A stretch of DNA of 64,000 nucleotides from Candidatus Krumholzibacteriia bacterium (GTDB taxonomy: Bacteria; Krumholzibacteriota; Krumholzibacteriia; LZORAL124-64-63): positions 7,331-71,330 of the forward strand of contig CAWGRT010000007.1 of the NCBI GenBank assembly GCA_963825035.1. Reading direction: 5' to 3'. Both the position numbers and the translations under genes were made by a program. The number at the start of each line of letters is the position of its first letter. The first letter of the stretch is position 1. This document shows positions 34,667 through 52,757 of the stretch, in pieces. The notes under the pieces are model-generated. The model was not told the origin of the DNA and did no database searches. It saw only the letters and a list, made by a program, of their open reading frames with translations.

Positions 34667-34694
34667 AGGGGCGCCCCCGCCGGAGCGCCCCTCC
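34667..34694. terminator. Stem-loop between convergent genes
   Basis: GAGGGGCGC / GCGCCCCTC, a 9-bp stem with a 10-nt loop, between the stop at 34629 (+) and the stop at 34726 (-). No U-tract. Confidence 0.3.
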
Positions 34695-34725
34695 GTCGTC
34701 AGGCGGTCGCCGTCGTCGTTCGGCG

Positions 34726-37700
34726 CTACTTGGCCAGCACCATCTTCGCCGCCGTCACGTCGCTCCCCGCGCGCACCCGCACGAAGTAGACGCCCGCCGC
34801 CGCCGCCTGGCCGGCGCCGTCTCGCGGCCGTCCCAGGCGGTGCGGTGGTCGCCGGCGGTGAGCGCCTCGTCCACCAGCGCCGCGCACCCGGCGGCCGCGC
34901 AGGTCGAAGACCGCCACCTGGACGCGGACCGCTGCCGGGCACGGCGAAGTTGACCGTCGTGCGCGGGTTGAAGGGGTTGGGCACGATGCCCGTCACCGCC
35001 AGCACCCGGGCAGGTCCGGGTCGCTCGACCGCCGACAGCCCGCCGCCGGTGAGCACCGGCGCGGAGTAGCCGCCCTGGCGCAGGTCGGCGCACACGGCGG
35101 CCACCAGGTAGTAGCTGCCCGGCCAGGGCGGCGTGTCGTCGAGGGACGTGCCCTCGGCCACGAGGTCCACCAGGTTGGCCGGCGAGGGCGGAACACCGCC
35201 GCGGTGTCGCGGTACGACGGCGTAGGCGGCCACCTGGGGATCGGCCGAGGCCGCCCAGGCGATGCGCCAGACGCCGCCGCCCAGATCGGTGGCCGCCACG
35301 CCCGTCACCGGCGGGGGCGCCGTGAACTCGGCCCCGGGGCCGCCGCAGAGACCGATGTCGCCGCGCGAACCGTCGGGATCGCTGCAACCCGCAGCCGGGT
35401 CGCCGGCGTCGATGCACACCGAGCCCTGCAGCAGGGACGGATCGGCGTCGCTCAGCAGGCGCGGGTCGCCGCTGACGTCGTGGGCGCCGGGGCTGACCGA
35501 CAGGTAATCGCCGCCGGTGTTGCCGTGGATGTCGTTGTAGTCCGCGGCCACGCCGGCGCCGCCGCCCAGCAGGCCGCCGCCGCCGACGTTGAAGGCCACC
35601 ACGGTGCCGCGCAGGGTCAGCGGATCGGTGGCGAAGGCCAGCAGGCCGCCGCCGTGGCCGCGCTGTTGCCGTCGACGAGGCAGTTCTCCACCAGGCCCGA
35701 GACGGCGAAGCCGCTCATGCCGCCGCCCATGTTGACGGCGCGGTTGTCCTGCAGGCGCAGGTTGCGCAGGGCCAGGACCGTGCCGTTGGCCTCGATGCCG
35801 CCGCCGTTGCCGCCGCCGACGGTGTTGGCCGCCAGTTCGCCGCCCCCGGCGGTGAACGAGCCGCCGCTCAGATACAGGCCCCCGCCGCCGCTCAGGGCGC
35901 GGTTGCCCCGCACCGTGGCCCCGGCCAGGGTCAGGTCCGCGGCCACGGCCGCCACCGCCCCGCCGTGCCCGGCGCTGCCGTTGCCGCCACCAGACCGCCG
36001 TCCAGCAGCAGGGCCGCGTTCTCCACGCACAGGGCGGCGCCCAGGTAGGATTCGGCGCTGTCGGTGCAGGCGTTGCCGGTGAAGGTGCAGTTGCGCACCG
36101 TCGCCGCCGCGCCGTCGTACACGGCCACCGCGCCGCCGCGGCTGGCCAGGTTGCCGGTGAAGGTGCAGTCCTCCAGCACGGGGCTGCCGCCCACCAGGCA
36201 GACGGCGCCGCCGTAGCCCGGGGACGGACCCGCCGCGGCCCGGTTGTCCTCGAACACGCAATCCTGCAGCAGCGGCGAGGCCCCACGCTGTAGACGGCAC
36301 CGCCGTGCTGGCCGCCCACGGGCTGGCTGAAGGTGGCGCCCACGCAGTCGTGGAAGACGAACCCCTCGGCGCCGCAGAAATCGCCGGCCGAGCTGGTGAA
36401 CCGCAGGGCGGTCCCGCCCGACTGGACCCGGGTCGGATACTGGAGGGGGTCGCGAACCGTGAAGGCGTCGTTCCAGCCGCCGATCAGGTGCACCGGCCCC
36501 GAGACGGTGGCCGAACCCAGGTAGTCGTCGCCCCGCACCATCACCGTGTCGATGCCCGTGCAGGCGGCCATGGCCGCCCCGATGGTGTGGGCCGCGGTCG
36601 CCGGCGTCTCGTAGGGCGCGGTCCCGCTGCCCAGGGTCGAGACGTAGCGCACCTTGTGGCCGATGATGTCCAGGGTCGGCGGCGTCATGCCCCAGCCCAG
36701 ATCGGTGCCGCCGCCGGCGCAGATCATCACGCTGGCGTACTTGGTGCCCAGGTTGGGCACGGTCCACTCGTAGCTGCCGGTGTTGGGCACGCCCGTGGCC
36801 ACGGGCACGTCGTGGCAGTCGCCGTCGATGCCCAGCCAGATGTCCACCGTCGGCACCGCGTCGCCGGAGGTGGTCCAGGTCAGGTCGATGGTCTGGTCGC
36901 CGTACAGGGGCTCGCTGCCCAGGGCCGGCGAGAGGGTGATGCTGCTGGGCGGGGGCGTGTAACGCAGCTGGGTGACCGAGGTGCCCGTCAGGCCCGCCCC
37001 GTACTTGACCCAGATGTAGCCGTTCTCGCCGAAGCTGGGGCCCCAGCTGTTCTTGATGAGCCAGGCGCCGGCGCCGCCGCAGGCGCGGTCGTCGTAGCCG
37101 ACGATCAGCACCAGGTGGTTGACCTGCTGCCCGGGCACGTCGTAGCAGCCGCCGCCGTAGGCCTCGAACTCGGGACTGGCGTCGATGCCCGTGCACACCG
37201 GGCCGTTCTGCAGGGCCGCCTTGATCTGGTCCACGTTGTTGGCGATGTAGTCGTAGCCCGTGACCCAGGCGTACTTCTGGAAGTCGTCCTGGAGGCAGGG
37301 CGCGGCCGGCGGGTCGGCCAGCAGGTACGGATGGCAGTTCTCCATCACCGCGCCCGTGTGCTGGAAGACGTAGTAGGCCGCCGTGGCCCAGCCGCCGTCG
37401 CAACCGGCGCCGTAGGGGTTGCAGGAGATGGTCTGCTGCTCCGAGAGATTGGTCTCGATCCCGTAGTAGATCTTCACGAAGGCCTCGAGTTCGGCCGTGG
37501 CCGCGAAGGCCCAGCACGAGCCGCAGGAGCCCTGGTCCTTGACCGGGGTGATGCCGTCCACGTTCCGCCAGTCCAGGCTCGAGGGCAGGTCCGCCTTGTC
37601 CACCGGGTAGATCCGCAGGTGCCGCTGCAGCTCCTTCGCGTAGCCCGGCGGCGCCACGTAGCCGCGCAGCGTCGCGCGGTGCTCGGGCGTCAGGGTCGCG

Positions 37701-37887
37701 GTGAAATCGGTCCTTGACCTCGAAGCTCCAGCCGTGGGCGGCGATCTCCCGGCTGATGGCCTCCAGGTCGGGCGCGTCCTGGGCCGCAGCGGGCGCCGCC
37801 GCCGCGAGCACGGACACGACGACGAGGAACCACGAGGAAACGACGCGCAGCGCGAGCCGGGAACGGAGCGGCGCAGACAGACCTCAT
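34726..37887 (-). CDS. Secreted papain-family (C1) cysteine protease fused to right-handed beta-helix repeats, FN3-like module and FlgD/T9SS-like C-terminal domain; many (>=8) frame breaks
   Basis: ATG 37887, with signal-like ..VVVSVLAAAAPAAAQ. LPSSLDWRNVDGITPVKDQGSCGSCWAFAATAELE (catalytic Cys), VNHLVLIVGYDD (His), WLIKNSWGPSFGENGYIWV (Asn/Trp). Beta-helix repeats: GGAVCLVGGSPVLEDCTFTGNLASRGGAVAVYDGAAATVRNCTFTGN, GGGLYLSGGSFT... C-terminus: IVPNPFNPRTTVNFAV...VAVFDLRGRRV...AAAGVYFVRVRAGSDVTAAKMVLAK. Confidence 0.75.
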
Positions 37888-37954
37888 GTGGATACCTTTC
37901 CGGATGCAACGCGGCGACCGCCATTCGGCCACCCGGGGACGGGCGGACGCCAGG

Positions 37955-37983
37955 ATTGTACCAAAACAATATCCGCAAACCAA
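37955..37983 (-). promoter_or_regulatory. Candidate sigma70-type promoter for the protease gene
   Basis: Minus strand TTGGTT (37983-37978), 17-nt spacer, TACAAT (37960-37955), in an AT-rich patch about 68 nt upstream of ATG 37887. RBS GGAAAGG. Confidence 0.35.
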
Positions 37984-38028
37984 ATTGTTAAAGATCGTCC
38001 GCAGTGCGCATCGGGGCACGGTTCCGGA

Positions 38029-40069
<2,041 letters not shown>

Positions 40070-40213
40070 CGGCAGGGCGACTTCGCAGGAGCTGGGCGGG
40101 CACGGGACTTCCGGGGGGTTCGGGCCACGGACGCGGGGAACCGGCGGGTCGCCGGCTCCCGGACTGGCCCATGGTAGCGCGCGGCGCCGGAGGCGTCCAC
40201 CGGCGGCGCCGGC

Positions 40214-40588
40214 CTAGGCGTTCGGGGAGCCCAGCAGGTCCTGCACGGCGGCGACGAGCTTGCCGGGGCTGAAGGGCTTGGTGACGTAGGCGTCGGCGCC
40301 GGCGTCCTCGCCGGTCCGGCGATCGTCGCGGCCGGTGCGGGCCGTCAGCAGGATCACGGGGATGCGCGCCGTGCGCCGGTCGGCCTTGAGGCGGCGGCAG
40401 GTCTCGAAGCCGTTGGTGCCGGGCATCATCACGTCGAGGATGACCAGGTCCGGCTGCTCGCCCAGGGCCAGGGTGAAGGCATCGTCGCCGTTGCGGGCGG
40501 CCACCACGTCGAAGCCCTCGGCGTGCAGGGTGAAGTCCAGGATGTTGCGGATGTTGGTCTCGTCGTCGGCGATCAGAACCTTGCGCAC
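40214..40588 (-). CDS. Single-domain response regulator (REC only)
   Basis: GTG 40588 preceded by GGGAGG (7-nt spacer). VRKVLIADDETNIRNILDFTLHAEGF...DLVILDVMMPGTNGFE...ADAYVTKPFSP. These are the last 124 codons of ORF 40214..43381. Confidence 0.8.
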   Translation of the reverse strand: MRKVLIADDETNIRNILDFTLHAEGFDVVAARNGDDAFTLALGEQPDLVILDVMMPGTNGFETCRRLKADRRTARIPVILLTARTGRDDRRTGEDAGADAYVTKPFSPGKLVAAVQDLLGSPNA

Positions 40589-40677
40589 GTCGGGGCCTCC
40601 CGAGTTGGTGACGGGGTCGGTGACCCCGGGAATATCGGCACGCGCGGCGGCGGGCTTGACCCCGGCCGCCGCCCCGG

Positions 40678-43381
40678 TCAGACGAGGGTCGTCATCCCGC
40701 GCCGGTCCAGGACCGGGCGGGCCAGGTCGCGGCCGTCGGCGCCGCGGCGCTGCAGGGTCTCGATGCGCTCGCGGCGGCGCTCCGCCTCCTCGAGGAAGAC
40801 GTCGGTCAGGTGGGGGCAGAACGCCTGCCCCGAGCCGTCGGCGATCTCCGCCAGGGCCCCGTCCAGGGTGTAGGCCGCCCGCCAGGGCCGCGGGCTGAGC
40901 AGGGCCGCCAGCACGTCGGCCAGGCGCACCAGGCGCGCGCCCAGCGGGATGGCCTCGCCGGCCAGGCCGCCGGGGTAGCCGCTGCCGTCGTAGTTCTCGT
41001 GGTGGTGCAGGATGATCTGGCGCGCCCGCGTGTCCGGCCGCAGGGCGTCCAGGATCTCCAGGCCCGCCTCCACGTGCTGCTGCATCACCCGCTGCTCGGG
41101 CGGGGCCAGGGGCTCGGGCTTGTTCAGCAGCTGGGGCGGCACGCAGCCCATGCCCACGTCGTAGAACTGCAGGGCGAACGCCAGGTGCTGCTGCTCCTCG
41201 GCGGGCATGCCCACGCGCCGGGCCGCGGCCAGGCAGATCTCCTGGCACAGCTCCAGCAGGCTCTCGTGGCGCAGGTGGCCCACGGCCGTGGTGGCCCGGA
41301 GGCTGTCCCGCAGGCACGCCCAGTTCGCGGGTGGCCTCGAGCCAGGCCTCGTGGCGGTCCAGCAGCTCGGCCAGCCGGGGCGCCAGGGCCTCCAGGAAGA
41401 GGCGGTCGTCGTCGTCCACGGGCCGGCCGTCCACGCGGTTGTTCACCGCCACCACGCCCCGCACGCCGGCGGGCCCGGGCAGGGGCACGCAGAGCACCGA
41501 CGGGGTGGAGTAGCGGGGCTCGTTCTCCTCGCGGCCGAAGCGGGGGTCGCGGGTCAGGTCGTCGATGCGCACCGACTCGCCCGTGGCCCACACCCGGCCG
41601 GCGATGCCCGCGCCCTTGCGCACGCGCACCCCCTGGACCACGGTCTCGTTCAGGCCGATGGCCGCGCGGATGCCCAGGTGCAGGCCGTCGGCGTCCGGTT
41701 CCATGAGGGTGACCGTCTGCACGCCCAGGCTCTCGGCCAGCCAGTGCAGCAGGCGCTGCAGGAACTCGCCGGGCTCGAACGGCTGGCCCGCATGGTCGCG
41801 CGACCGCACCGGCTGCACCACCGCGGCGCGCCGGGGCAGCAGCACCGTGAAGCGGGCGCCGCCCGTCGCCACGTTCTCGGCCCAGATGCGCCCGTCGTGG
41901 TGGGTGACGATCTCGTGGCAGATGGCCAGGCCCACGCCCTGCCCGTTGTGGCGCGCGGGTGGCCGAGCCGTCCACCTGGTAGAACTTGTCGAAGACGGCG
42001 CCGAGCTTGTCGGTCGGGGATGCCGATGCCCGTGTCCTGCACCGTCAGGCGCAGGGCGGTGCCCGACTCGGCCAGGCCCACGGTCACGCGCCCGCCCTCG
42101 GGGGTGAACTTGAAGGCGTTGGCCAGCAGGTGGGTGAGCAGCTGCTGCAGCAGCACCGGGTCCACGGGCATGGCGATGGCCGCGGCCGGCGCCTCGACCC
42201 GCAGGTCCAGCCCCGCTTCGGCGGCGCGGCTGCGCCAGCCGTCCTCCAGGCGACGGACCAGGGACACCACGTCCGTCTCGGACCGGTTGAGCAGCGGCCG
42301 CCCGTTCTCCATCTGGCTCAGCTCGAGGATGTCGTTGATGACGGCCGTCAGCTTGTGGCTCTCGGTGTGGATGACCTTGAGGAACTCGTCCAGGGACTCG
42401 CGCGACATGGACGCCAGGTTCTGCTGGAGCAGCTCCGTGTAGGCGGAGATGGACGTCAGGGGCGTGCGCAGCTCGTGGCTGACGTTGGCCACGAAGTTGG
42501 CCTTCATGTCGGCGAGGCTGGCCAGCTTCTCCGAGGCCAGGGAGAGCTCGGCATTGTTGCGGGCCAGGCGGTCGTAGACCTCGGCCGACTCGATGGCGCG
42601 TGGCGGCCTGGCGCGCCAGGAACTCCAGCTGGCGGATCTCCGCCTGGCCGGGCCCGCGCCCGCCGGCCGGACGCTGCAGGTCCAGGTAGCCCAGGGGTTC
42701 GCCGCCGGCGGCCTGCAGGGGGGCGACCAGGCGCCAGCCCTCGCGCCAGGCGCCGTTGACCACCTCGCCGTCGGTGCCGTCGACGTCCCCGTCCGGACGC
42801 ACCAGGAAGCAGCCGAAACAGCGCAGGCGGGGGTCGGTCGACCTCGGCGTACTCCTGGCGGGATACCGGACGCCGGCCCAGCTCGCCCCGTTCGGTCTCG
42901 TCCACGCCGCGGGCGCCGCGCACCTGGAAGGCCCTGGTCGGCGTCCGACCAGAGGTACAGGATCACGCGGTCGAAGCCCAGGATGTCGGCGGCCGCCGCC
43001 ACCACCCGGTCCACCAGCTCGGCGAGCTGCCGGGTGCCGTTGATCCGCGCGGACACGGCCAGGATGCGCTCGAGGGCCCGCGTGCGGCCGCGCAGGCGTT
43101 CGGTCTTGTCCAGCTGGCGCGCCGCCTGGCGGGCCAGGTCGTCCCGCTCCGCGGCGGTCTTCTGCACGTGGGCCAGCAGCGTCCTCGCGTTCGCCGGCCA
43201 GCTGCTCGGCGCGGGCCCGCTCACGGTCGCCGCGCTCCCGCAGGCGCCGCCCCATCATGGTCCCCCACACCGCCAGACCCGTCGCGGCCACCAGCGCCAG
43301 CGCCAGGCCCCCGGGCACGGCCATGGCGTGCACGCCGACGGCCTGGGCCAGGAGGGCGACGATGACGAGGGCGGGGAACAC
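40678..43381 (-). CDS. Membrane-anchored hybrid sensor: TM - GAF - HisKA - HATPase_c - GAF - HD-GYP; many (>=6) frame breaks
   Basis: GTG 43381 preceded by GAGGAGA. MFPALVIVALLAQAV..LALALVAATGLAVWG (TM). GAF1: LAELVDRVVAAAADILGFDRVILYLW. H-box: FVANVSHELRTPLTSISAYTELL. LLANAFKFTPEGG, VQDTGIGIP, GQGVGLAICHEIVTHHDGRIWAEN. GAF2: GIAGRVWATGESVRIDDL...VLCVPL. HD-GYP (ORF 40678..41283): FALQFYDVGMG...ILHHHENYDGSGYPGGL. Confidence 0.75.
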
Positions 43382-43395
43382 GGCGCGCGTCTCCT

Positions 43396-43785
43396 CTACT
43401 TCATGCCGGTGCGGGCGGCCAGCAGGTCCTGGATGCGTCCCACCAGCTTGGCGATGACGAAGGGCTTGCGCATGAACACGTCGGCGCCGGCCTCCCTCAT
43501 GCGGCGGCGCGTGGCCTCGTCCGCCCGGGCGGAGAGGGCCACGATCACCGTGTCCTGGTAGCTGCGGTTGCGGCGGATCAGCCGCGTGGTGTCCACGCCG
43601 TCGAGCTTCGGCATCATGATGTCCATGATCACCACGTCGGGCCGGAAGCTGGCCATCTTGTTCATGCAGTCGATGCCGTCGGCCGCGGACAGGACCGTGT
43701 GGCCGTCCTGTTCGAAGGCCAGGGCCAGCAGCGACGCGATGGGCCGCTCGTCGTCCACGATCAGGATGCGGGAGGGCAGGGCCAT
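43396..43785 (-). CDS. Single-domain response regulator (REC only)
   Basis: Intact 129-aa ORF. RILIVDDERPIASLL...DVVIMDIMMPKLDG...ADVFMRKPF. Confidence 0.85.
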   Translation of the reverse strand: MALPSRILIVDDERPIASLLALAFEQDGHTVLSAADGIDCMNKMASFRPDVVIMDIMMPKLDGVDTTRLIRRNRSYQDTVIVALSARADEATRRRMREAGADVFMRKPFVIAKLVGRIQDLLAARTGMK

Positions 43786-43802
43786 CGTCTCTCCTTGGCG
43801 CC

Positions 43803-45632
43803 TCAGGGGCGCGGTGCGGCGCCGCTGCCGGCCCCGCTGGTCTGGGGTTCGGCGCCGCGGGCGGCCAGCACCGCGGCGAAGGCGGCCACCACCGCCGGGT
43901 CGAACTGGCTGCCGGCGCAGCGCTCGATCTCCGCCAGGGCGGCCGCGGGCTCGAGGCCCGGGCGGTAGGGCCGCTCCCGGGTCAGGGAATACCAGGCGTC
44001 CACCACCGCCAGGGCCCGCGAGCCCAGGGGGATGGCGCCGCCGGCCAGGCCGTCAGGGTGGCCGGCCCCGTCGAAGCGCTCGTGGTGGTGGCGGACGATG
44101 GCCGCGGTGGCCGCGTCCGGCAGCAGCGGCGCCAGCAGGTCGAGCCCCAGCTGCACGTGGCGGTCCACCTCGTCGCGGGCGTCCCAGTCCAGGGCGCCCT
44201 CGCCGTGGAGGATCTCGTCGTCCACCCGGGCCATGCCCGCGTCGTGGAGGGCGGCCGCGTCCTGCAGGCTGGCGGTGGCGGCCGGGCCCAGGGCCAGGCG
44301 CGCGGCCAGGGCCGAGGCCAGGTCCAGGGCCTCGGCCGTCGCCGTGGGCACGCCCCGGCGGCGGACCTGCAGGAGGATGCGCAGGGCCTCGATGGTGCGG
44401 CCGGGATCGTCCTCGCCGCTGCGCAGGGCCTGGGCGGCGATGCGCGCCAGCACCCGCACCTGCTCCCGGTCCGGGTCGCGCCAGGGGACGTCGGCCAGGC
44501 GGCGGCCCAGCAGGATCCAGCCGCGCCTGCCCTCCGTCAGGGGCGCCGCGAGCCAGGGGGAATCCTCCGGCCGCGCCAGCCCCAGGGCGGCGGTCAGGGC
44601 CGTCCCCGGATCGCCGGTCGCCGCGCCCGGCGCCGGCACCAGCGCCGGCAGCCGCACCGTTCCCGGCAGGCCGGTCCAGGCCGCGGGCAGCAGGCCGCCC
44701 CCGGCGGCCGGCAGCAGCAGCACCGCCGCCCGGGCGTCGGCGTGTTCGGTCAGCAGCCGCGTCAAGACCTGCAGCACGCCGGGGTGGCCCGCGGAAGGCG
44801 CCGTGTCCTCGCCCACGGTGTGCACCTCCTTGGGCACGCCGAAGGTGAAGACCGAGCCGCCCCGCTCCCGACGGCGCACCGCCACGTGGCCCCCGTGCAG
44901 GCTGACGATGTGGCGCACGATGCTCAGGCCCAGCCCGGTGCCGCTCTCGGCCGTGGCCGCGCCCTCGGCCCGGTAGAACTCGCGGAAGATGCGCCGCAGT
45001 TCGTCGGCGGGCACGCCGGGCCCGTCGTCGGCCACGTCCACGGTGATGAAGGCGGCGCCCTCGGCGACCGTCACCTCCACCCCGCCGCCGGCCGGGGTGT
45101 ACTTGACGGCGTTGCCCACCAGGTTGACCACCACCTGCCGCAGCAGGTCGGCGTCCACCTCGGCCCGGGGCACGTCCGGCTCCGCCCGCACCACCAGCCG
45201 CTGGCGCTTGGCCGCGGCCGACGCCTCGAGGCTCGCGGCGGTCTCCTGGACGAGTGCGGCCAGGTCCACCGGACGCCGGTCCAGCAGGCGCGAGCCGTAC
45301 TCCATGCGGGAGAAGTCGAGGATGCGGTTGACCATGCGCAGCAGGCGGGCGGCCTCCTCGCGGATCACCTCCAGGAACTGGGGGGCCCGGTCGAAGCCCG
45401 GATCGCCGGCGTGGGTCAGCAGGGCGTCGGTGTAGGCGGTGATGGAGGTCAGGGGCGTCTTGAACTCGTGGCTGGCCATGGCCACGAAGCGGCCCTGCAG
45501 GCGGTTCAGCCGGACCAGGGTGCGGTTCTCGGCCCGCAGCCGGCGCACCTCGGCCTGGAGGGCTTCCCGGTCGGTCGGCGGGGCCGGCGCGGCGCCCCCG
45601 GGGCGGCTGTCCGGTGCGGTGCGGTGGTCCAT
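43803..45632 (-). CDS. Soluble hybrid sensor: coiled coil - HisKA - HATPase_c - GAF-like linker - HD-GYP (intact, 609 aa)
   Basis: H-box FVAMASHEFKTPLTSITAYTDAL. VVNLVGNAVKYTPAGG, VADDGPGVP, GTGLGLSIVRHIVSLHGG. C-terminal AALHDAGMARV...IVRHHHERFDGAGHPDGLAGGAIPLGSRALAVVDAW (HD-GYP with GHP). Confidence 0.8.
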   Translation of the reverse strand: MDHRTAPDSRPGGAAPAPPTDREALQAEVRRLRAENRTLVRLNRLQGRFVAMASHEFKTPLTSITAYTDALLTHAGDPGFDRAPQFLEVIREEAARLLRMVNRILDFSRMEYGSRLLDRRPVDLAALVQETAASLEASAAAKRQRLVVRAEPDVPRAEVDADLLRQVVVNLVGNAVKYTPAGGGVEVTVAEGAAFITVDVADDGPGVPADELRRIFREFYRAEGAATAESGTGLGLSIVRHIVSLHGGHVAVRRRERGGSVFTFGVPKEVHTVGEDTAPSAGHPGVLQVLTRLLTEHADARAAVLLLPAAGGGLLPAAWTGLPGTVRLPALVPAPGAATGDPGTALTAALGLARPEDSPWLAAPLTEGRRGWILLGRRLADVPWRDPDREQVRVLARIAAQALRSGEDDPGRTIEALRILLQVRRRGVPTATAEALDLASALAARLALGPAATASLQDAAALHDAGMARVDDEILHGEGALDWDARDEVDRHVQLGLDLLAPLLPDAATAAIVRHHHERFDGAGHPDGLAGGAIPLGSRALAVVDAWYSLTRERPYRPGLEPAAALAEIERCAGSQFDPAVVAAFAAVLAARGAEPQTSGAGSGAAPRP

Positions 45633-45644
45633 GCTACCCCTTGC

Positions 45645-46633
45645 TCAGTCGACATCGATCCGCGCCTGGCCCGCCACGACCAGCTCCGGCTGCCCGGGTG
45701 CGGTGCGGCGCTCGCAGACGACGACGCTCTCGATCATCGTCTTGCCGTAACGCTTGAGCTCGGCCATGGTGTCGCTCAGTTCGGCGGGATGGGCGAAGCG
45801 GCCCTGGGCGTCGGCGACCAGGGCGACGGTCAGCGTGATGACGGGAAATCGCTTGACGCGGCCGTCGCGGCCCTTCGACTTCGAGGTAGCCCCGCGCCAC
45901 GTCCTCGGCGTCGTGCAGCCCCGACACGCCGGAGTCGAACTCCTCGACGATGTGGCGGCCCAGGTCGTCCGCGTGGTCGCTGGCGGTGACCACGACGAAG
46001 TCGTCGCCGCCCACGTGCCCCACGAAGTCCCGGGCCGAGCCGTACTTCTGGGTGCAGCCCACCAGCACGCCCGCCAGGAAGGAGATGGCCCGGTCCCCCC
46101 GCGAGTAGCCGTACTGGTCGTTGAAGCTCTTGAAGCGGTCGATGTCGATGTACATGCAGCCGAAATCCGCGGCCGCCGGCGATGCGCTCGGTCAGCTCGC
46201 GCTCGATGGCGCGGTTGCCCGGCAGGCCGGTCAGCGGGTTGGCCTCCCGCTCGCGGCGCGTGGCCTCCAGCAGGTTCTTGACCCGCAGCAGCAGCTCGTC
46301 CTGGTTGAAGGGCTTGATGACGTAGTCGTTGGCGCCGCCCTTCAGGCCCCGGACCCGGTCCTCCACCTCGCCCTTGGCCGTCAGCAGGATCACCGGCAGC
46401 CGGGACGTCTCGAAACCGGCACGGATGATCTCCAGCACGGAAAATCCATCCATGCGCGGCATCATCACGTCCAGCAGGACCAGATCCGGCTGGAAACTGG
46501 TCACGGCCTTCCAGGCCTCTTCGCCGTCGGCGACGAGATGCACCTGGAAACCCTCCTGTTCCAGCAGGAACTGCAGGATTCGCCGGATGTGCGGCTCGTC
46601 GTCGGCGACGAGAATGCGGGATGTGTCCGCCAT
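45645..46633 (-). CDS. Response regulator-diguanylate cyclase (REC-GGDEF) with GGDDF signature, about 3 frame breaks
   Basis: ATG 46633. MADTSRILVADDEPHIRRILQF..DLVLLDVMMPRMDG..ANDYVIKPF. NPLTGLPGNRAIERELTERI. YIDIDRFKSFNDQYGYSRGDRAI...DFVGHVGGDDFVVV (GGDDF encoded at 45997-46011). Tail ITLTVALVADAQGRFAHPAELSDTMAELKRYGK. Confidence 0.8.
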
Positions 46634-46755
46634 TGTCGTCCGTTTCGTCGCGCTGCAAATTGCTCCTACGGCCCCGGCGGGTCGGGACCGTCCGTCGGCC
46701 GCGTCCGCAAAGGGACGTGCCAGGCAAGGGTTATCGGCAGGCGGCGAGAGGAACT

Positions 46756-47770
<1,015 letters not shown>

Positions 47771-47772
47771 CA

Positions 47773-49447
47773 GCGCGTCCCCCGTCACCGGCCACAGGCG
47801 CTCGCGCAGGACGGCGTCGGCGCTGGCCTCCTGTTCCATGGCCTCGAACACCGGGCCGATGGCCGCGGCGATCTCCCGCACCAGCACCGAGCGGGTGCTG
47901 CGACCGCGGGCGGCCAGCGGTGCCGGCCAGGCCGTGCACGTAGGCGCCCAGCAGGGCCGCGTCCAGGGCGGACAGCACCCTGGGCCAGCAGGCCGCCGAT
48001 CAGTCCGGTGAGCACGTCGCCCGAACCGCCGCGGGCCAGGGCGTCGTCGCCCGATCCGTTGATGAACACGCGGCCGTCGGGCGCGGCGATCACCGTGGGC
48101 GAGCCCTTGAGCATCAGCACGCAGTTCCAGCGGGCGGCCAGCTCGGCCGCCAGCTCGCGGGCGCTTCGGCGTTCGACCTCGGCCGAGGTGCGGCCGATCA
48201 GCCGGGCCAGCTCGCCGGCGTGGGGCGTCAGCACCACCTGGTCGTGGGCGAAGCGCGGCTCGCCCTCCAGGCGGGCGAAGGCCCCCAGGCCGTCGGCGTC
48301 CACCACGCAGGGGCGGTCCAGGCTGCGAGAGCAGGTCCACCACCCAGCGGTCGGTGGCCGGGTCGTCGCACAGGCCCGGCCCCAGCGCCACCGCCCGGCG
48401 CGCCCCCAGCAGCGTGGCCGAAGGCCTCGGTGTCCAGGGGCGCGATGGTGCCCGCCTCGGTCTCGGGCACGGCCGCGACGATGGCCTCGGGCAGCCCCAC
48501 CCGCACCGGCACCTCGAGGCTCTCGGGGACCAGCATGGTCACCAGGCCCGCGCCCGAGCGCAGCGCGCCCAGACCCGCCAGGTGGGCCGCGCCGCCGAAG
48601 GCCCGGCTGCCGGCCACCACCAGCACGGTGCCGCACTGGTACTTGTGGGCCCAGGAGCGCCGCGGCGGCAGCAGTTCCAGGCAATCGCCGCGGGTCAGCC
48701 AGTGCTCGCGGCCGGCGTGGCGGGCGCACACCGCGTCGGCGAAGCCGATGTCCGCCACCTCGATCTCGCCGGCGAAGTCGCGGCCCGGCGGCAGCAGCAG
48801 GCCCCGCTTGACCAGGCCGATGGTCAGGGTGCGGTCCGCGGCCACGGCCACCGGATCGACGCGCCCGTCGTCCCCGTCCACCCCCGAGGGGATGTCCACG
48901 GCCAGGCACGGCACGCCCGGTGTCGTTCAGGGCCCGGAACAGGTCGGGATAGGCCCCCCGCAGGGGCGGCTTGACGCCCGGTGCCGAAGACGGCGTCGAT
49001 CACCAGGTCGGTCTCGTCGGCCAGGTCGGCCGCGGTCCCGGCCCAGGCCGCGGGCGCGGGCGCGGCCACCGTGACCGCGTCCGGCAGCAGCTCCAGGTTG
49101 GCGCGGGCGTCGGGACTGAGGGCGTCGGCCGCCGCCAGCAGCAGCACCGTGACGGCCACCTCCTCCTCGGCCAGCAGGCGGGCGGCCACCAGGCCGTCGC
49201 CGCCGTTGTTGCCCTTGCCGCAGACGATCAGCACCCGCGGGGCCTCGTCCTCCGCCCCGTGGTCGTGGCCGCAGGCGCCGTCGCAGGCGTGGTCGTGGCC
49301 GTGGTCGTGGTCCTGCTCGGCCAGCATGAACAGGGCCGTCTCGGCCACCGCGGCGCCGGCCCGCTCCATCAGCTCCAGGCCCGGCACGCCGCCGGCGATG
49401 GTCTCCTTGTCGATGGCCGCCATGGCCGCTGCCGTCACCACGCGCAT
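47773..49447 (-). CDS. nnr: Bifunctional NAD(P)H-hydrate repair enzyme (YjeF_N epimerase + YjeF_C dehydratase), >=4 frame breaks; 3' end unresolved
   Basis: MRVVTAAAMAAIDKETI..LMERAG..VLIVCGKGNNGGDGLVAARLL; IDAVFGTG; AVDIPSGVD; HKYQCGTVLVVAGSRAFGGAAHLAGLGALRSGAGLV; VVDADGL..VLTPHAGELARL; VLMLKGSPTVIA..NGSGDDALARGGSGDVLTGLIGGLLAQG. No in-frame stop before the tsaD ATG in the sequence as given. Confidence 0.8.
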
Positions 49448-49450
49448 GGG

Positions 49451-50191
49451 TCAGTCCTTCCGGGAAGCAGGGCCGCCGCCCAGCCGCGCGAGCACGTCCA
49501 GCAGCTGGAGCGGATCGTCCACCACGAAGTCGGGTTCGGTCTCGTCGTCGGTCAGCTTGTCGGCGTACTGGCTGTACTTGTCGCCGTAGCGGGCGTAGAC
49601 CGTGTGCAGGCCCGCGGCGCGGCCGCCGACGATGTCCCGCTCCTTCCAGTCGCCGATCACCACGGCGCGCCCGGGCTCCACCGCCAGCTGCTCCAGGGCC
49701 ATGCGGAAGGGTTCGGGCGCGGGCTTGCGGAAGCCCGTGTCGTCGAAGGTCAACACCAGGTCGAAGGTGTGCTGCAGGCCCAGGTAGACCAGGCGCACCC
49801 AGGCCTCGAAGCGCGGGGCGTCGCTGACCACCGCCAGCTTGTAACCGTCCTTGAGCAGCCGGTTCAGCACCCGCTGGGCGTGGGGGTACAGCACCAGCGA
49901 GCCGTCGCGGGCCCGCCGGTAGGCCACCACCGCCGCGGCCAGGATGCGGTCCTCCACCCGCCCCATGACCTCCTCCAGGAACAGGTTGAACACCCGCTGG
50001 TGCTCGATGCCCCGGTCCTTGTAGACGGCGAAGATGCGCTGGGTCGCCTCGTCCTCGGGCATGTCCAGGCCCGCATCCACCATGGCCTCGGCCGCGGCCC
50101 GGATGCTGCGCTCCTTGGCGCCCATGAAATCGGTCAGGGTGTTGTCCAGGTCGAAGATGACCGCGTCGATGCCGCTGCCTGCCACGTGCAC
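49451..50191 (-). CDS. HAD-superfamily hydrolase
   Basis: Intact 246-aa ORF. AVIFDLDNTLTDF (DxD motif I), LAVVSDAP (motif II), VVIGDWKERDIVGG (motifs III/IV). Confidence 0.8.
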   Translation of the reverse strand: MHVAGSGIDAVIFDLDNTLTDFMGAKERSIRAAAEAMVDAGLDMPEDEATQRIFAVYKDRGIEHQRVFNLFLEEVMGRVEDRILAAAVVAYRRARDGSLVLYPHAQRVLNRLLKDGYKLAVVSDAPRFEAWVRLVYLGLQHTFDLVLTFDDTGFRKPAPEPFRMALEQLAVEPGRAVVIGDWKERDIVGGRAAGLHTVYARYGDKYSQYADKLTDDETEPDFVVDDPLQLLDVLARLGGGPASRKD

Positions 50192-50220
50192 ACCTTTCGT
50201 CGGGGTCCCGCGCCTTCCCT

Positions 50221-51117
50221 ATGAAACGCCCGCCGGGGCAATTGCACAACCTGCGGTTGCCTCTCGGGCCGGACGGGACGATCATGGCGGGCATGAACGA
50301 CCGACCGCCGCACCTCCCGCCCGACTCCGCACCCGGTCTGTGGCAGACCTGGGGCCACCTGCCGGTCCTGGCCCTGACCATCTTCCTGTTCATGGCCTAC
50401 CTGGTCTGCCAACTGCTGTTCTACGGCCTGACGGGCGGCCTGATGCTGCCGGTGCTGGCCGGCGCGCTCGTGGGCGTGATGCTGCCTCTGGAGCTGCTGC
50501 GGCGGCGCGGGGTGCTGATCCCCGAGGACGACCTGGGCCTGGACCGTCCCGACCGGGTGACGCTGGCCCTGGTGGTGGTGATCGCCCTGGCCTCCCTGGC
50601 GCCGGTCTCCCTCCTGGCCGAGGCGGCCCTGCGGCTGCATCCGGTGGACGCCGCCTGGGCCGCCGACTACAACGGGCACCTGCCCCGGACGGCGGGCGAG
50701 ATGATCGTGGCCGGGCTGGCGGTCCTGTTGGTGGCGCCCCTGGCCGAGGAGATCATCTTCCGGGCGTTCCTGCAGCGTCTGGCCACCGAGACCTGGGGCG
50801 TGGTGCCCGGCATCGTGGTGTCGGCCCTGGCCTTCGGCCTGCTCCACGGCGAGCCCTGGTACCTGTTCGGCCTCATCGGCGTCGGCCTGGTCCTGGGCCT
50901 GGTCTGGGCGGCCACCCGCTCCCTGACCGCCTGCTGGCTGGCCCACGCGGTGCACAACGCCGTCTCCCTGATCGCCCTGCTCCGGGGCGAGGGGGTCAGC
51001 GTGGAACCGGCGGTCTACGGCGCCTGGGACTGGGTCCTGGTGGGGGTGTCGTTGGCGGCGTTGGCGACGGCGGGGTGGGCGCTCGTGCGGCGCGGCCGCC
51101 GGGGCCGCGCCGCCTGA
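50221..51117 (+). CDS. CPBP-family intramembrane glutamic endopeptidase (CAAX protease-like)
   Basis: Intact ORF. LVAPLAEEIIFRAFLQ (EExxxR), FGLLHGE, WLAHAVHNAVS. Several TM helices. An alternative start is ATG 50284 (MAGMNDR). Confidence 0.8.
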   Translation: MKRPPGQLHNLRLPLGPDGTIMAGMNDRPPHLPPDSAPGLWQTWGHLPVLALTIFLFMAYLVCQLLFYGLTGGLMLPVLAGALVGVMLPLELLRRRGVLIPEDDLGLDRPDRVTLALVVVIALASLAPVSLLAEAALRLHPVDAAWAADYNGHLPRTAGEMIVAGLAVLLVAPLAEEIIFRAFLQRLATETWGVVPGIVVSALAFGLLHGEPWYLFGLIGVGLVLGLVWAATRSLTACWLAHAVHNAVSLIALLRGEGVSVEPAVYGAWDWVLVGVSLAALATAGWALVRRGRRGRAA

Positions 51118-51130
51118 GCGCCCGTCGCGG

Positions 51131-51319
51131 TCACCGCGCGGATTCGCGCAGGAGCTTGCCCAGGCTGATCTCCCCGTTGTCGATGCGGATGCTGAATCCG
51201 CACGCGGGGTTGTGGCAGACCCAGGCCTTGTAGCGGATGGGCGCGCCGTCGCGCCCGTAATCGGAAAGCGGCAGGAGAAGCCCCTCGCCGCACTTCTTGC
51301 AATCGGGGAACTGATCCAT
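51131..51319 (-). CDS. Small zinc-ribbon protein (62 aa)
   Basis: Intact ORF. CKKCGEG...(24 aa)...CHNPACG gives a four-Cys ribbon spacing similar to YgiT-type zinc fingers. No other domain. Confidence 0.45.
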   Translation of the reverse strand: MDQFPDCKKCGEGLLLPLSDYGRDGAPIRYKAWVCHNPACGFSIRIDNGEISLGKLLRESAR

Positions 51320-51483
51320 CGTATCTCCTCGGGCCCCACGCCCACGTCCCGTCCGGATCGATGCGGGCGCCCGCCGGCCTTGGCCGGCCCCCGCTGAGGG
51401 AAGACGCTAATCCTAGCTCAATACTAGGCAATTTCAAGCCTGATTTGCCGCCGGCCCGGCCAACCCGCCGCGACGGGTCCGGC

Positions 51484-52757
51484 TCACGTCTTCTGGGGCT
51501 TCTTCCGGGCCGCCGGGAACAGCACGTTGTTGAGGATCAGGCGGTAGCCCGGCGAGGTGGGGTAGAGATCGAGGTCCGTGGGGGGATCGCCCACCCGGTG
51601 CTGGTAGTCCTCGGGGTCGTGCCCGCCCAGGAAGGTGAACGTGCCCATGCCCCGCTTGCCGTGGATGTACTTCACCTCGTCGGTGCCGTCGACCGCCGCC
51701 AGCACGATCACCGAGCGCTTCAGGAACTTCTTCCGGTAGCCGGTGGTCTGGCCCAGGAAGCCGTTGATCACGTTCACGTGGTCCTGGGTCAGCATGGCCG
51801 GCACCGGGTCGTACTTGGCCGCGAAGGAGAAGAGGGTGAAGTAGTCGGCTTCGGGCCCGCGCATGGCGGCGTAGTTGCTGGAGTCCAGGTCCGAGAACTC
51901 GTAGACCAGCGGGTTGGTGACGAGGTTGAAGTTCTCGAAGGCGAAGGTGGCGTCGTAGTCCACCTTGCCGCGGTAGGCGGGATCCACCGGCGTGCCGTCG
52001 AAGGGCGTGTCCACGATGTCCGTGTCCAGCCAGGCCAGGGCGATGTCGATGGTGTCGGTGGCCGAGCACATGGCGAACAGGAAGCCGCCCCCCTCCACGA
52101 ACTGCCGGATGGTCAGGGCCACGGCGTGCTTCAGCTGCCACACGGTCTTGAAGCCCAGGGTCCTGGCCAGCTCCTCGTGGAAGACCTTCTGGTCCAGGTA
52201 CCAGGGCTCCTGGCCGAAGCTCGCGTAGAACTTGCCGTACTGGCCGGTGAAATCCTCGTGGTGCAGGTGCAGCCAGTCGTAGTCGTTCAGGCGGCCCGCC
52301 AGCACGTCCTGGTCGTAGATGGTGTCGTAGGGGATCTCGGCGTAGGTCAGGGCCAGGGTCACCGCGTCGTCCCAGGGCTGCAGGTTGGGCGGGCTGTAGA
52401 CCGCGATGCGGGGCGGCTTCTCCAGCAGCACCTCCTCCATGTTCTCCTGGGCGATGGTCTTGTGGATGGCCGCCACGTCGGCGTCGCCGATCTCCTCGAA
52501 CACCACGCCCATCAGCCGCGCGTCCAGGCGGGCGCGTTCGGTGTCGTCCATGAGGAAGCTCCGCCGCGGTAGTTGAGCAGCCAGTTCACCTTGGCGCCGG
52601 CCTGCAGGGTGTGGAAGGCCAGGCCGTAGGCCTTCAGGTGGTTCTTCTGGGTCAGGTCCATGGGCACCAGCAGGTAGCCGGCGGCCCGGGCGGCGGGCGC
52701 GGCCACCCCCGCCAGCAGGGCCGCCAGCGCCAGGGCGATCAGGCGGGAACGTCTCAC
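51484..52757 (-). CDS. Secreted GATase1-like protein of the family commonly auto-annotated 'asparagine synthetase B' in Bacteroidota; one frame break
   Basis: GTG 52757 overlaps the TPR gene stop (GTGA). VRRSRLIALALAALLAGVAAPAARAAGYLLVPMDLTQKNHLKAYGLAFHTLQAGAKVNWLLNYRGG / (break ~52560) / MDDTERARLDARL...PRIAVYSPPNLQPWDDAVTLALTYAEIPYD...WLHLHHEDFTGQYGKF...GGFLFAMCSATD...GGHDPEDYQHRVGDPPTDLDLYPTSPGYRLILNNVLFPAARKKPQKT. Confidence 0.7.

What the first reader, a model, noticed from the sequence alone, without database searches (positions are those of the whole stretch)
40214..46633. Duplicated [histidine kinase-GAF-HD-GYP hybrid + lone REC] modules behind a REC-GGDEF gene, all with non-canonical c-di-GMP signature residues
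The genes form one co-directional run with gaps of 12, 17, 14 and 89 nt:
- REC-GGDEF (46633->45645)
- soluble HisKA-HATPase-GAF-like-HD-GYP (45632->43803, intact 609 aa)
- REC (43785->43396)
- TM-GAF-HisKA-HATPase-GAF-HD-GYP (43381->40678)
- REC (40588->40214)

HD-GYP phosphodiesterases are classically REC-fused (RpfG type). Here the HD-GYP domain sits at the C-terminus of complete histidine kinases, the receiver is a separate downstream gene, and the pair is duplicated.

Read directly from the DNA, every c-di-GMP domain deviates from consensus:
- The cyclase has GGDDF instead of GG(D/E)EF (45997-46011) and no RxxD I-site.
- Kinase 1 has LHDAGM but HHERFDGAGHP, i.e. GHP in place of GYP.
- Kinase 2 has the canonical HHENYDGSGYP but FYDVGM, i.e. 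Tyr in place of the His of the HD dyad.

This complementary degeneracy suggests that sensor/receptor or heteromeric roles are possible, rather than simple enzymes.
Basis: partly seen in the sequence, partly recalled or inferred. Interest (0 to 1): 0.7.

Follow-up and report, generated by a model that had tools for sequence, protein, structure and literature searches.

The report
Histidine kinases fused to pseudo-HD-GYP domains
This is a five-gene signalling operon, conserved across the uncultured phylum Krumholzibacteriota, in which two sensor kinases each carry a c-di-GMP phosphodiesterase-like domain that has lost key catalytic residues and probably senses the messenger rather than degrading it; nobody has characterised it.

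Summary
Genes A and D are broken by nine single-base insertions. These are assembly noise: neighbouring genes are broken too, and a 2.85-Mb relative has all five genes intact with the same deviant residues.

The cassette is an old, conserved operon, not a recent duplication. It has the same gene order in seven related loci, usually between tsaD and priA, behind a conserved sigma-54-type promoter.

The deviations are lineage hallmarks:
- GGDDF marks a widespread REC-linked GGDEF subfamily.
- Tyr-Asp replaces His-Asp in about 115 of 118 D-type proteins.
- GHP is one of three variants in the B family (GYP 78, GHP 37, GFP 4).

The degeneracy is shared, not complementary. Both HD-GYP domains lack the equivalents of PmGH D183, H189, K225 and D308, and D also lacks H221. 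Alanine substitutions of D183, H189, H221 and K225 abolish hydrolysis in PmGH. G-site metal ligands and nucleotide contacts are kept.

Best reading: these are c-di-GMP-sensing kinases coupled to an I-site-less cyclase and two single-domain receivers. That mechanism is inferred, not shown. It is a new variant of a known kind.

The parts
46706..46722 (-). Sigma-54-type -24/-12 promoter element (TGGCACG-N5-TTGCG) upstream of gene A
   Evidence: It is the only such site in the 64-kb window. TGGCA[CT]G-N4-TTGC lies 69-89 nt upstream of the A start codon in all five intact related loci. The window copy has one extra C in the spacer, probably another insertion error.
45645..46633 (-). Gene A: REC-GGDEF response regulator of the WspR/DgcR type, with GGDDF (46011-45997) and no RxxD I-site. 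Needs +1 frame corrections near 46169 and 45876.
   Evidence: Pfam. Frames. Orthologue alignment with GHVGGDDFV invariant. AF2 model of orthologue P0241, pLDDT 87.8, with best fold matches WspR 3BRE, DgcR 6ZXB and PleD.
43803..45632 (-). Gene B: soluble HisKA-HATPase_c kinase + GAF-like domain + degenerate HD-GYP. H-box 45476-45450; LHDAGM 44249-44232; HHHERFDGAGHP 44090-44055.
   Evidence: Intact ORF. Pfam. 100% identical to database protein P0001. AF2 model, pLDDT 75.9, with an alpha/beta GAF-like segment at residues 284-376. Residue mapping against canonical HD-GYPs.
43396..43785 (-). Gene C: single-domain receiver, 129 aa, with canonical DD / D / S / K residues
   Evidence: A 129-aa receiver gene sits here in all seven related loci.
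40678..43381 (-). Gene D: 2 TM + GAF + HisKA-HATPase_c + GAF + degenerate HD-GYP. H-box 42483-42457; FYDVGM 41166-41149; HHHENYDGSGYP 41007-40972. Needs seven +1 frame corrections near 43182, 42940, 42845, 42599, 42020, 41956 and 41318.
   Evidence: The intact 903-aa orthologue in L001 has the same motifs. Family statistics.
40589..40677 (-). 89-nt spacer between D and E, containing TGCCGATA (40640-40633)
   Evidence: Spacer length is similar in the relatives (76-90 nt). GCCGAWA lies 36-52 nt upstream of E in L001, L082 and L085. Function unknown.
40214..40588 (-). Gene E: single-domain receiver, 124 aa, with canonical DD / D / T / K. Its alpha-1 helix resembles that of A's receiver.
   Evidence: 92% identical to the L001 orthologue.

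Best explanation
Shown:
- The region is a five-gene, probably sigma-54-dependent operon that is a conserved fixture of Krumholzibacteriota genomes.
- It encodes a WspR-like REC-GGDEF protein of a distinct 'GH[IV]GGDDF' subfamily.
- It encodes two PhoR/WalK-type histidine kinases with complete catalytic boxes. Each is extended at the C-terminus by a GAF domain and an HD-GYP domain, and each is followed by a canonical single-domain receiver.
- Both HD-GYP domains lack residues that are indispensable for hydrolysis in the reference enzyme PmGH. They keep the G-site metal ligands and the arginine and aromatic nucleotide contacts.

Inferred:
- The HD-GYP domains are pseudo-enzymes that bind c-di-GMP, or a close relative of it, and report its level to the kinase core they are fused to.
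- The kinases phosphorylate the three receivers.
- Phosphorylated A dimerises and makes c-di-GMP. Its GTP-binding and metal residues are intact, and Asp replaces the second Glu.
- Because A has no I-site, product feedback would act through the kinase-borne HD-GYP sensors instead.
- The lone receivers C and E would act as phosphate sinks or allosteric partners, in the manner of DivK beside PleD. E most likely competes with A for the same kinase.
For: Cassette and synteny:
- The same five genes in the same order, all intact, occur in L001, L003 and L082-L085. L002 matches as far as its 5-kb contig reaches.
- Identical longest-contig lengths recur among A, B and D hits, which points to many further assemblies carrying the cassette.
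- The sigma-54 box is conserved.

Kinases and receivers:
- Kinase and receiver catalytic residues are present.

Residue mapping against canonical HD-GYPs:
- D183 -> R in B, H in D.
- H189 -> A/S in B, L in D.
- H221 is kept in B and is Y in D.
- K225 -> M or L in both.
- D308 is lost in both.
- D222, H250, H276, H277, D305, R314 and K317(R) are kept.
- These states are near-invariant in 120 + 120 family members.

Literature:
- In PmGH, D183A, H189A, H221A and K225A abolish activity, while mutations in the GYP motif do not (PMC4159591).
- DvhD is a degenerate HD-GYP that acts as a non-catalytic c-di-GMP switch (PMC13090378).
- GGDDF is active in GSU1937 (PMC8835794).

Other:
- The window's B has no N-terminal sensor domain, so the C-terminal module is its only candidate input (compare the 750-800-aa orthologues).
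- A and E receivers share their alpha-1 helix and are 42% identical, against 33-35% for the pairs that include C.
Against: - No binding, hydrolysis or phosphotransfer data exist for any member.
- The Lys of HDxGK, which contacts a c-di-GMP phosphate in DvhD (K582), is Met or Leu here. c-di-GMP binding is therefore not assured.
- The four G-site metal ligands are invariant in B and D, whereas DvhD has lost three of them. This could mean a retained metal-dependent chemistry or a metal or redox sensing role.
- Sensor domains normally lie N-terminal to the kinase core, and a C-terminal input is unusual.
- GGDDF in a GGDEF-EAL protein (PA3258) gave no cyclase phenotype (cited in PMC8835794). REC-GGDDF-EAL architectures exist, where such domains often act as GTP sensors.
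- Which kinase pairs with which receiver is inferred only from gene adjacency and helix similarity.
Confidence: 0.45

Rival explanations
1. The HD-GYP domains are still phosphodiesterases that use a reduced (mono- or binuclear) metal centre. B and D would then be bifunctional kinase-phosphodiesterases that degrade what A makes, with the lone receivers regulating them in trans, as a split RpfG.
For: - D222, H250, H276, H277 and D305 are invariant, and B also keeps H221.
- HD-GYP domains with fewer ligands (binuclear subfamily) are predicted or known to be active (PMC4159591).
- PA4781, with GFP, is deposited as a cyclic di-GMP phosphodiesterase.
- HD-GYP activity is classically REC-controlled.
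Against: Three (B) or four (D) residues whose single alanine substitutions each abolish PmGH activity are replaced at once, and stably so across the families (PMC4159591). The general acid/stabiliser pair D183/K225 is missing in both.
Confidence: 0.2
2. The HD-GYP domains are nucleotide-independent interaction scaffolds. They would dock the GGDDF cyclase (as the GYP motif of RpfG docks GGDEF proteins) or the phosphorylated lone receivers, assembling a local signalling complex on the kinase.
For: - The GYP motif is needed for the RpfG-GGDEF interaction but not for catalysis (PMC4159591 discussion).
- Catalytically inactive RpfG-family proteins act through protein-protein contacts, e.g. HnoD (bioRxiv 10.1101/2021.11.05.467447).
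- GYP is kept in 117/118 D-type proteins.
- The cyclase gene is always adjacent.
Against: - The nucleotide contacts R314 and K317(R) and the aromatic clamp are conserved.
- The G-site metal ligands are invariant, which a pure scaffold would not need.
- B tolerates Y/H/F at the GYP tyrosine.
Confidence: 0.17
3. The retained single metal site makes the domain an iron, redox or gas sensor that controls the kinase, unrelated to c-di-GMP binding.
For: - The G-site ligands are invariant while the M and H sites are dismantled.
- The window's B has no other sensor domain.
- From my own knowledge, not checked here: the activity of several HD-GYPs depends on the redox state of their iron.
Against: - The nucleotide-contact residues are conserved.
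- The cassette has an obligatory cyclase partner.
- I found no precedent for an HD-GYP acting as a pure metal sensor.
Confidence: 0.1
4. A and D are decaying pseudogenes, or the deviant motifs are sequencing artefacts, so there is no functional system.
For: There are nine frame disruptions in A and D.
Against: - All nine are +1 insertions.
- Neighbouring housekeeping genes (yjeF-tsaD, peptidase C1, a conserved hypothetical) are broken in the same way.
- The corrected frames contain no stop codons. Most segments are 74-97% identical to intact L001 proteins, lower in D's variable N-terminal third.
- All motifs recur in intact orthologues.
Confidence: 0.03

Closest known systems
RpfC/RpfG and the RpfG family (REC-HD-GYP response regulators)
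   Same: A two-component system coupled to an HD-GYP domain. The family includes catalytically inactive members that signal through protein contacts.
   Different: In RpfG the HD-GYP is fused to the receiver. Here it is fused, through a GAF domain, to the C-terminus of the kinase, and the receiver is a separate gene. Key catalytic residues are missing.
DvhD of Desulfovibrio vulgaris (PDB 9RBZ/9RC0), a degenerate HD-GYP c-di-GMP receptor
   Same: An HD-GYP fold that has lost catalytic residues but keeps GYP, the Arg and the aromatic clamp. c-di-GMP binding moves the preceding helical stalk to signal to other domains.
   Different: DvhD is a LapD-like transmembrane receptor (PAS-HD-GYP), not a kinase. 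It has lost the HD and HH ligands and binds no metal. B and D keep the G-site ligands but lack the Lys (K582) that contacts the phosphate in DvhD.
c-di-GMP-controlled histidine kinases: ShkA (pseudo-receiver), CckA, SgmT (C-terminal degenerate GGDEF)
   Same: Kinase output is set by c-di-GMP binding to a domain of the kinase itself (ShkA: PMC6969517, PMC7010744; review PMC10519070). SgmT also uses a C-terminal degenerate c-di-GMP-metabolism domain as the receptor (my own knowledge plus the review).
   Different: None of them uses an HD-GYP domain. Here c-di-GMP binding is inferred, not shown.
DivJ/PleC - DivK - PleD of Caulobacter
   Same: Two kinases, a single-domain receiver and a REC-GGDEF cyclase share phosphoryl flow, and the receiver and cyclase genes are adjacent (my own knowledge).
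   Different: The Caulobacter kinases carry no c-di-GMP domain. PleD has GGEEF and an I-site. There are two lone receivers here.
GSU1937 of Geobacter (Hypr GGDEF with GGDDF)
   Same: A GGDDF active-site motif with demonstrated cyclase activity in vivo (PMC8835794).
   Different: GSU1937 has the Hypr Ser that gives cGAMP. Gene A keeps the Asp (..GD) expected for GTP. The domain context is different.
HnoK-HnoB-HnoD network of Shewanella
   Same: A kinase feeds several receivers, including one with a degenerate HD-GYP that regulates rather than hydrolyses.
   Different: In HnoD the degenerate HD-GYP sits on the response regulator, and the system's enzymatic output is an EAL phosphodiesterase.

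Membership tests
HD-GYP domain (fold / Pfam HD_5) | Significant match to HD_5/HD and to solved HD-GYP structures | tested here: met
   B scores HD_5 at 3.7e-29 and D at 3.7e-32. PDB hits are 5Z7C, 4R8Z, 4MCW and 9RBZ, with E-values from 1e-23 to 1e-12.
Catalytically competent HD-GYP c-di-GMP phosphodiesterase | The eight metal ligands of PmGH (E185, H189, H221, D222, H250, H276, H277, D305) | tested here: not met
   B lacks the E185 and H189 equivalents. D lacks E185, H189 and H221 (Tyr in its place). The other ligands are kept.
Catalytically competent HD-GYP c-di-GMP phosphodiesterase | D183/K225 pair (alanine substitutions abolish activity) and the structural D308 | tested here: not met
   D183 -> R (B) or H (D). 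K225 -> M or L. D308 -> C/F/Y (B) or A/S (D) (PMC4159591).
Catalytically competent HD-GYP c-di-GMP phosphodiesterase | GYP motif | tested here: inconclusive
   D has GYP (117/118 in its family). The window's B has GHP (family: GYP 78, GHP 37, GFP 4). The motif is not needed for catalysis in PmGH.
Catalytically competent HD-GYP c-di-GMP phosphodiesterase | Measured hydrolysis of c-di-GMP or pGpG | not testable with these tools
   Needs biochemistry.
Degenerate HD-GYP c-di-GMP receptor (DvhD-like) | c-di-GMP contact residues: Y621 (GYP), K582, R650, Y652 | tested here: inconclusive
   The Arg is kept. The aromatic is kept (Y/F in B, W in D). The Tyr is kept in D and in two thirds of B. The Lys is replaced by Met or Leu.
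RpfG-type response regulator | Receiver domain fused N-terminal to the HD-GYP in one polypeptide | tested here: not met
   The HD-GYP follows HisKA-HATPase_c-GAF, and the receivers are separate genes.
GGDEF diguanylate cyclase | GGDEF fold | tested here: met
   Pfam GGDEF 4.1e-15, partial match. The AF2 model has the full fold, and its best matches are WspR, DgcR and PleD.
GGDEF diguanylate cyclase | Active-site motif [G/A/S]G[D/E]E[F/Y] | tested here: not met
   The motif is GGDDF, and both Asp are invariant in 30 relatives down to 36% identity. One GGDDF enzyme is active (PMC8835794).
GGDEF diguanylate cyclase | Metal Asp (DxD-FK), guanine-binding Asn and Asp (ND..G..GD), phosphate Lys | tested here: met
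   D163, D165, K168, N171, D180 and K297 are invariant or nearly so in alignment A4. The mapping to PleD residues D327, K332, N335, D344 and K442 is from my own knowledge.
GGDEF diguanylate cyclase | RxxD inhibitory site five residues before the motif | tested here: not met
   The Asp at -6 is kept, but there is no Arg at -9 in the orthologues.
HisKA-type sensor histidine kinase | H-box His and the N, G1, F and G2 boxes | tested here: met
   HisKA and HATPase_c score 1e-18 to 1e-29. H-boxes are SHEFKTPL and SHELRTPL. The fold matches HK853 and WalK. The best NCBIfam matches, PnpS, WalK and PhoR, are all below their cut-offs.
Two-component receiver domain | Acidic pair, phospho-acceptor Asp, Thr/Ser, Lys | tested here: met
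   A, C and E all have DD...D...T/S...K. Response_reg scores 1e-26 to 1e-32.
Sigma-54-dependent promoter | TGGCAC-N5-TTGC-type -24/-12 element at a fixed distance upstream of the operon | tested here: met
   An exact TGGCA[CT]G-N4-TTGC is present in five of five related loci, 69-89 nt before A. The window copy has one extra base. Activator and transcription were not tested.

The most novel reading that the evidence does not exclude
The cassette is a self-contained c-di-GMP homeostat of a new design. An I-site-less GGDDF cyclase is switched on by phosphorylation, and its product is read by pseudo-HD-GYP domains built into the very kinases that phosphorylate it. Product feedback therefore acts on the kinase rather than on the cyclase. 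This would make B and D the first histidine kinases known to use an HD-GYP fold as a second-messenger input domain, and the system would be a core regulator of a whole uncultured phylum.
Probability: 0.3. Interest if true: 0.7.

Novelty: new variant of a known kind. Interest (0 to 1): 0.52.

Why it matters
- HD-GYP domains are the least understood of the three c-di-GMP domains. Non-catalytic HD-GYP receptors were only recently given a structural basis (DvhD, 2026).
- A kinase-fused pseudo-HD-GYP would add a new way of wiring c-di-GMP into two-component signalling.
- It would supply hundreds of natural sequences showing which HD-GYP residues can be lost while the domain stays under selection.
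- It would give a first handle on regulation in Krumholzibacteriota, which have no cultured model.
- The work also shows that GGDDF marks a large, REC-linked GGDEF subfamily whose activity has hardly been tested.

Tried and rejected
- **Pseudogenes or sequencing artefact.** Rejected. All nine frame breaks are +1 insertions, the neighbouring genes are broken in the same way, and the orthologues are intact with the same motifs.
- **Recent tandem duplication.** Rejected. B and D are about 33-36% identical, and both occur in every related locus that is not cut short.
- **HK-HD-GYP fusions in other phyla.** The apparent full-length matches in Planctomycetota, Solirubrobacterales, Dormibacterota, Desulfovibrio, Selenomonadales and others turned out to be adjacent but separate kinase and canonical HD-GYP genes (LHDIGK, GYP).
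- **Riboswitch or known RNA in the spacers.** Nothing credible in Rfam. No intrinsic terminators on the coding strand inside the cassette and no sigma-70-type promoters.
- **Fold search with full-length B.** Kinase-core hits dominated the list, so it said nothing about the C-terminal half.
- **NCBIfam.** No specific family for any of the five proteins.
- **Literature.** Searches for HK-HD-GYP fusions and for c-di-GMP in Krumholzibacteriota found nothing specific.

Full report
**1. What is in the sequence**

The window is about 73% G+C. On the minus strand between 46633 and 40214 lie five co-directional genes separated by 12, 17, 14 and 89 nt:
- A: REC-GGDEF, 46633->45645.
- B: 45632->43803, an intact ORF of 609 aa.
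- C: 43785->43396, 129 aa.
- D: 43381->40678.
- E: 40588->40214, 124 aa.

Pfam assigns:
- Response_reg + GGDEF to A.
- HisKA + HATPase_c + HD_5 to B.
- HisKA + HATPase_c + GAF + HD_5 to D, with a weaker N-terminal GAF.
- Response_reg to C and E.

**2. The frame breaks are noise**

A can be read only after two frame corrections and D only after seven.
- A nucleotide alignment with an orthologous locus shows that all nine are single-base insertions in the window.
- The same kind of break affects the neighbouring yjeF-tsaD, papain-like peptidase and conserved hypothetical genes. By the ORF pattern it also affects priA.
- The corrected frames have no stop codons. Most segments are 74-97% identical to the intact proteins of the relative; D's variable N-terminal third is lower.

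These are assembly-level indel errors, not gene decay.

**3. A conserved cassette, not a local duplication**

B is 100% identical to a database protein on a 146.9-kb contig. It has hundreds of full-length relatives, and where a source names them the name is Candidatus Krumholzibacteriota/-ia (one says Gemmatimonadales).

I recovered gene neighbourhoods for five relatives at 45-75% identity and two more from the genome scan (L002, L003).
- Six of the seven (L001, L003, L082-L085) show the same five genes in the same order: REC-GGDEF (328-349 aa), HK-HD_5 (606-822 aa), REC (129 aa), GAF-HK-GAF-HD_5 (839-912 aa), REC (124-126 aa).
- The seventh, L002, runs off the end of its 5-kb contig partway into the fourth gene.
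- Where the flanks were read (L001, L082-L085), HAD, yjeF and tsaD lie upstream. L082 has an unannotated 574-aa gene and a gap in place of yjeF and tsaD. priA lies downstream in four of the five.
- All the genes are intact in these loci.
- Identical longest-contig lengths recur among the A, B and D hit lists (for example 447182, 3842393, 1239350, 158986, 55011, 65643). This indicates that the cassette is present in many more assemblies.
- B and D are only about 33-36% identical to each other, so the two kinase-receiver modules separated before this lineage radiated.

Apparent full-length matches in other phyla resolved into separate, adjacent kinase genes and canonical HD-GYP genes.

**4. A sigma-54-type promoter**

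Upstream of A, every related locus has exactly one TGGCA[CT]G-N4-TTGC element, 69-89 nt before the start codon. The window has the only such element in its 64 kb at 46706-46722, with one extra C in the spacer. That extra base is plausibly another insertion error.

No terminator-like site lies on the coding strand within the cassette, no sigma-70-like promoter was found, and no Rfam family matches credibly. The five genes are best read as one sigma-54-dependent operon. The conserved spacer of about 90 nt before E could hold an internal signal, but that is unexplained.

**5. The GGDDF protein**

GHVGGDDFV is invariant in six orthologues, and GGDDF is present in at least 104 of the 120 best family hits.

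A search of 1.84 billion cluster representatives showed that this is the hallmark of a large GGDEF subfamily:
- The signature is D[LI]DxFKx[FY]NDxYG[FY]xxGD ... GH[IV](G/A)GDDF.
- 121 of the best 150 representatives have GGDDF, and further ones have AGDDF.
- Both Asp are invariant down to 36% identity.
- In the representatives examined the domain lies next to a receiver, in architectures that include multi-REC proteins, hybrid kinases, REC-GGDDF-EAL and REC-GGDDF-REC-HD-GYP.

The metal-binding Asp, the guanine-binding Asn and Asp and the phosphate Lys are conserved. The mapping of these to PleD residues is from my own knowledge.

An AF2 model of a close orthologue (pLDDT 87.8) has a complete GGDEF fold with an extra beta-hairpin. 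Its best matches are full-length WspR, DgcR and PleD. By sequence alone, solved cyclases align only to about ten residues past the motif.

A GGDDF enzyme, GSU1937, has been shown to be active, whereas the GGDDF-EAL protein PA3258 showed no cyclase phenotype (PMC8835794). The RxxD I-site is absent.

I conclude that A is probably an active, phosphorylation-controlled cyclase without product inhibition. This is inference.

**6. The HD-GYP domains**

I aligned the B and D orthologues with thirteen canonical HD-GYP domains and with fragments of PA4781, PmGH, V-cGAP3 and DvhD. I read the result against the PmGH structure-function study (PMC4159591). That study reports:
- The metal ligands are E185, H189, H221, D222, H250, H276, H277 and D305.
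- H189A, H221A, D222A, H250A, H276A, H277A, D183A and K225A abolish activity.
- G284A, Y285A and P286A do not substantially reduce activity.

| PmGH residue | B | D |
|---|---|---|
| D183 | Arg | His |
| H189 | Ala/Ser | Leu |
| H221 | kept (His) | Tyr |
| K225 | Met | Met/Leu |
| D308 | Cys/Phe/Tyr | Ala/Ser |

The H189 position in B lies within a conserved G[VI]PT[AS]T segment. Both proteins keep D222, H250, H276, H277 and D305, and both keep the nucleotide-contacting R314 and K317 (as Arg) with the adjacent aromatic residue.

These states are family-wide:
- LHDAGM occurs in 101 of 120 B-type proteins as counted, and the seven closest relatives, miscounted by the pattern, also have it.
- x-Y-D-x-G-[LM] occurs in about 115 of 118 D-type proteins.

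The tyrosine of GYP varies in B (GYP 78, GHP 37, GFP 4) and is fixed in D (117/118). PA4781, deposited as a cyclic di-GMP phosphodiesterase, itself has GFP.

So the degeneracy is shared, not complementary, and GHP is the least consequential of the changes. The middle and HD-side metal sites and the proposed general acid pair are dismantled, while the GYP-side site and the nucleotide pocket remain under strong selection.

**7. Kinases and receivers**

- Both kinases have complete H, N, G1, F and G2 boxes and are PhoR/PnpS/WalK-like. All NCBIfam matches are below their cut-offs.
- The AF2 model of B (pLDDT 75.9) matches HK853-type cores. It has an alpha/beta, GAF-like domain at residues 284-376, which Pfam calls GAF_2 in many orthologues.
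- The window's B and its nearest relatives lack the N-terminal region of about 190 residues found in the 750-800-aa orthologues. Its only candidate input domains are therefore C-terminal.
- D has two predicted membrane helices with almost no periplasmic loop, followed by a GAF domain.
- All three receivers have the canonical acidic pair, phospho-acceptor Asp, Thr/Ser and Lys.
- A's receiver and E share their alpha-1 helix (xIRxILxFxLxxEGF) and are 42% identical, against 33-35% for the pairs that include C.

**8. How it most likely works**

Shown: the cassette, the intact kinase and receiver machinery, the missing phosphodiesterase residues, the retained pocket, and the conserved promoter.

Inferred:
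- The HD-GYP domains are pseudo-enzymes that bind c-di-GMP and modulate the kinase they are attached to.
- The kinases drive A, which makes c-di-GMP.
- The lone receivers compete for, or relay, phosphoryl groups.
- Feedback lost with the I-site is exerted at the level of the kinase.

The strongest precedent is DvhD. Its degenerate HD-GYP binds c-di-GMP without metal or turnover and moves its N-terminal helical stalk (PMC13090378). c-di-GMP-controlled kinases are also known (ShkA, PMC6969517).

Points against:
- The HDxGK Lys that contacts a phosphate in DvhD is Met or Leu here.
- The invariant G-site ligands hint at a retained metal function.
- A C-terminal input domain is unusual.
- There are no experimental data for any member.

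I give the sensor model about 0.45. The rivals are a residual phosphodiesterase (0.2), a nucleotide-independent scaffold (0.17), a metal or redox sensor (0.1) and an artefact or pseudogenes (0.03).

**9. Comparison and novelty**

The system works like a hybrid of three known systems: the DivJ/PleC-DivK-PleD circuit, c-di-GMP-sensing kinases, and DvhD/HnoD-type pseudo-HD-GYPs. It is not a member of the RpfG family, because the receiver is not fused to the HD-GYP. It also fails the residue test for catalytic HD-GYP phosphodiesterases.

The HD-GYP census by Galperin and Chou does not mention kinase fusions in the passages I retrieved. My other literature searches found no characterised example.

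I rate it a new variant of a known kind. It is of moderate interest to specialists, raised by its phylum-wide conservation and lowered by the lack of a cultured host and by the purely inferential mechanism.

Noticed in passing
window 46706-46722 (-); L001 8919, L082 5885, L083 5906, L084 5926, L085 5902: A conserved sigma-54-type -24/-12 element (TGGCA[CT]G-N4-TTGC) lies 69-89 nt upstream of the REC-GGDEF gene in every related locus. The window copy has a 5-nt spacer (one extra C).
   Followed up: yes
window 46732-46739 (-) and 40633-40640 (-): TGCCGATA occurs exactly twice in the 64-kb window, both times in the cassette's non-coding spacers: just upstream of the sigma-54 box and in the D-E spacer. 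GCCGAWA sits 36-52 nt before gene E in L001, L082 and L085. Chance is not excluded, since 12% of shuffles gave two or more matches. Function unknown.
   Followed up: partly
window 34900-52800 (e.g. yjeF-tsaD 46759-49447, peptidase 34928-37756, hypothetical 51487-52757, priA about 38000-40100): Many genes across the window are split between reading frames. Within the cassette all nine breaks are +1 insertions relative to L001, which suggests a systematic insertion-type assembly error rather than biology.
   Followed up: partly
proteins P0361-P0510; window gene A 45645-46633: 'GH[IV](G/A)GDDF' defines a large, apparently unstudied GGDEF subfamily. In the representatives examined it lies next to a receiver, in multi-REC proteins, hybrid kinases, REC-GGDDF-EAL and REC-GGDDF-REC-HD-GYP proteins. 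One member has a weak, sub-threshold match to the Cas10/Cmr2 palm domain, which also uses a GGDD motif.
   Followed up: partly
B orthologues P0010-P0120 versus window 43803-45632: Most B-type proteins are 750-830 aa, with an extra N-terminal region of about 190 residues that has no Pfam match. The window's B and its closest relatives (596-618 aa) lack it entirely.
   Followed up: no
L001 6200-8887: In the 2.85-Mb relative, yjeF (YjeF_N + Carb_kinase) and tsaD are called as a single 895-aa fusion gene. They are separate genes in L083, L084 and L085.
   Followed up: no
window 34637-37978 (-): A large papain-like (Peptidase_C1) protein with a beta-helix region and a FlgD-Ig / Por-secretion-type C-terminal tail lies downstream of priA. 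It is conserved at the same place in L001, L082 and L084.
   Followed up: no
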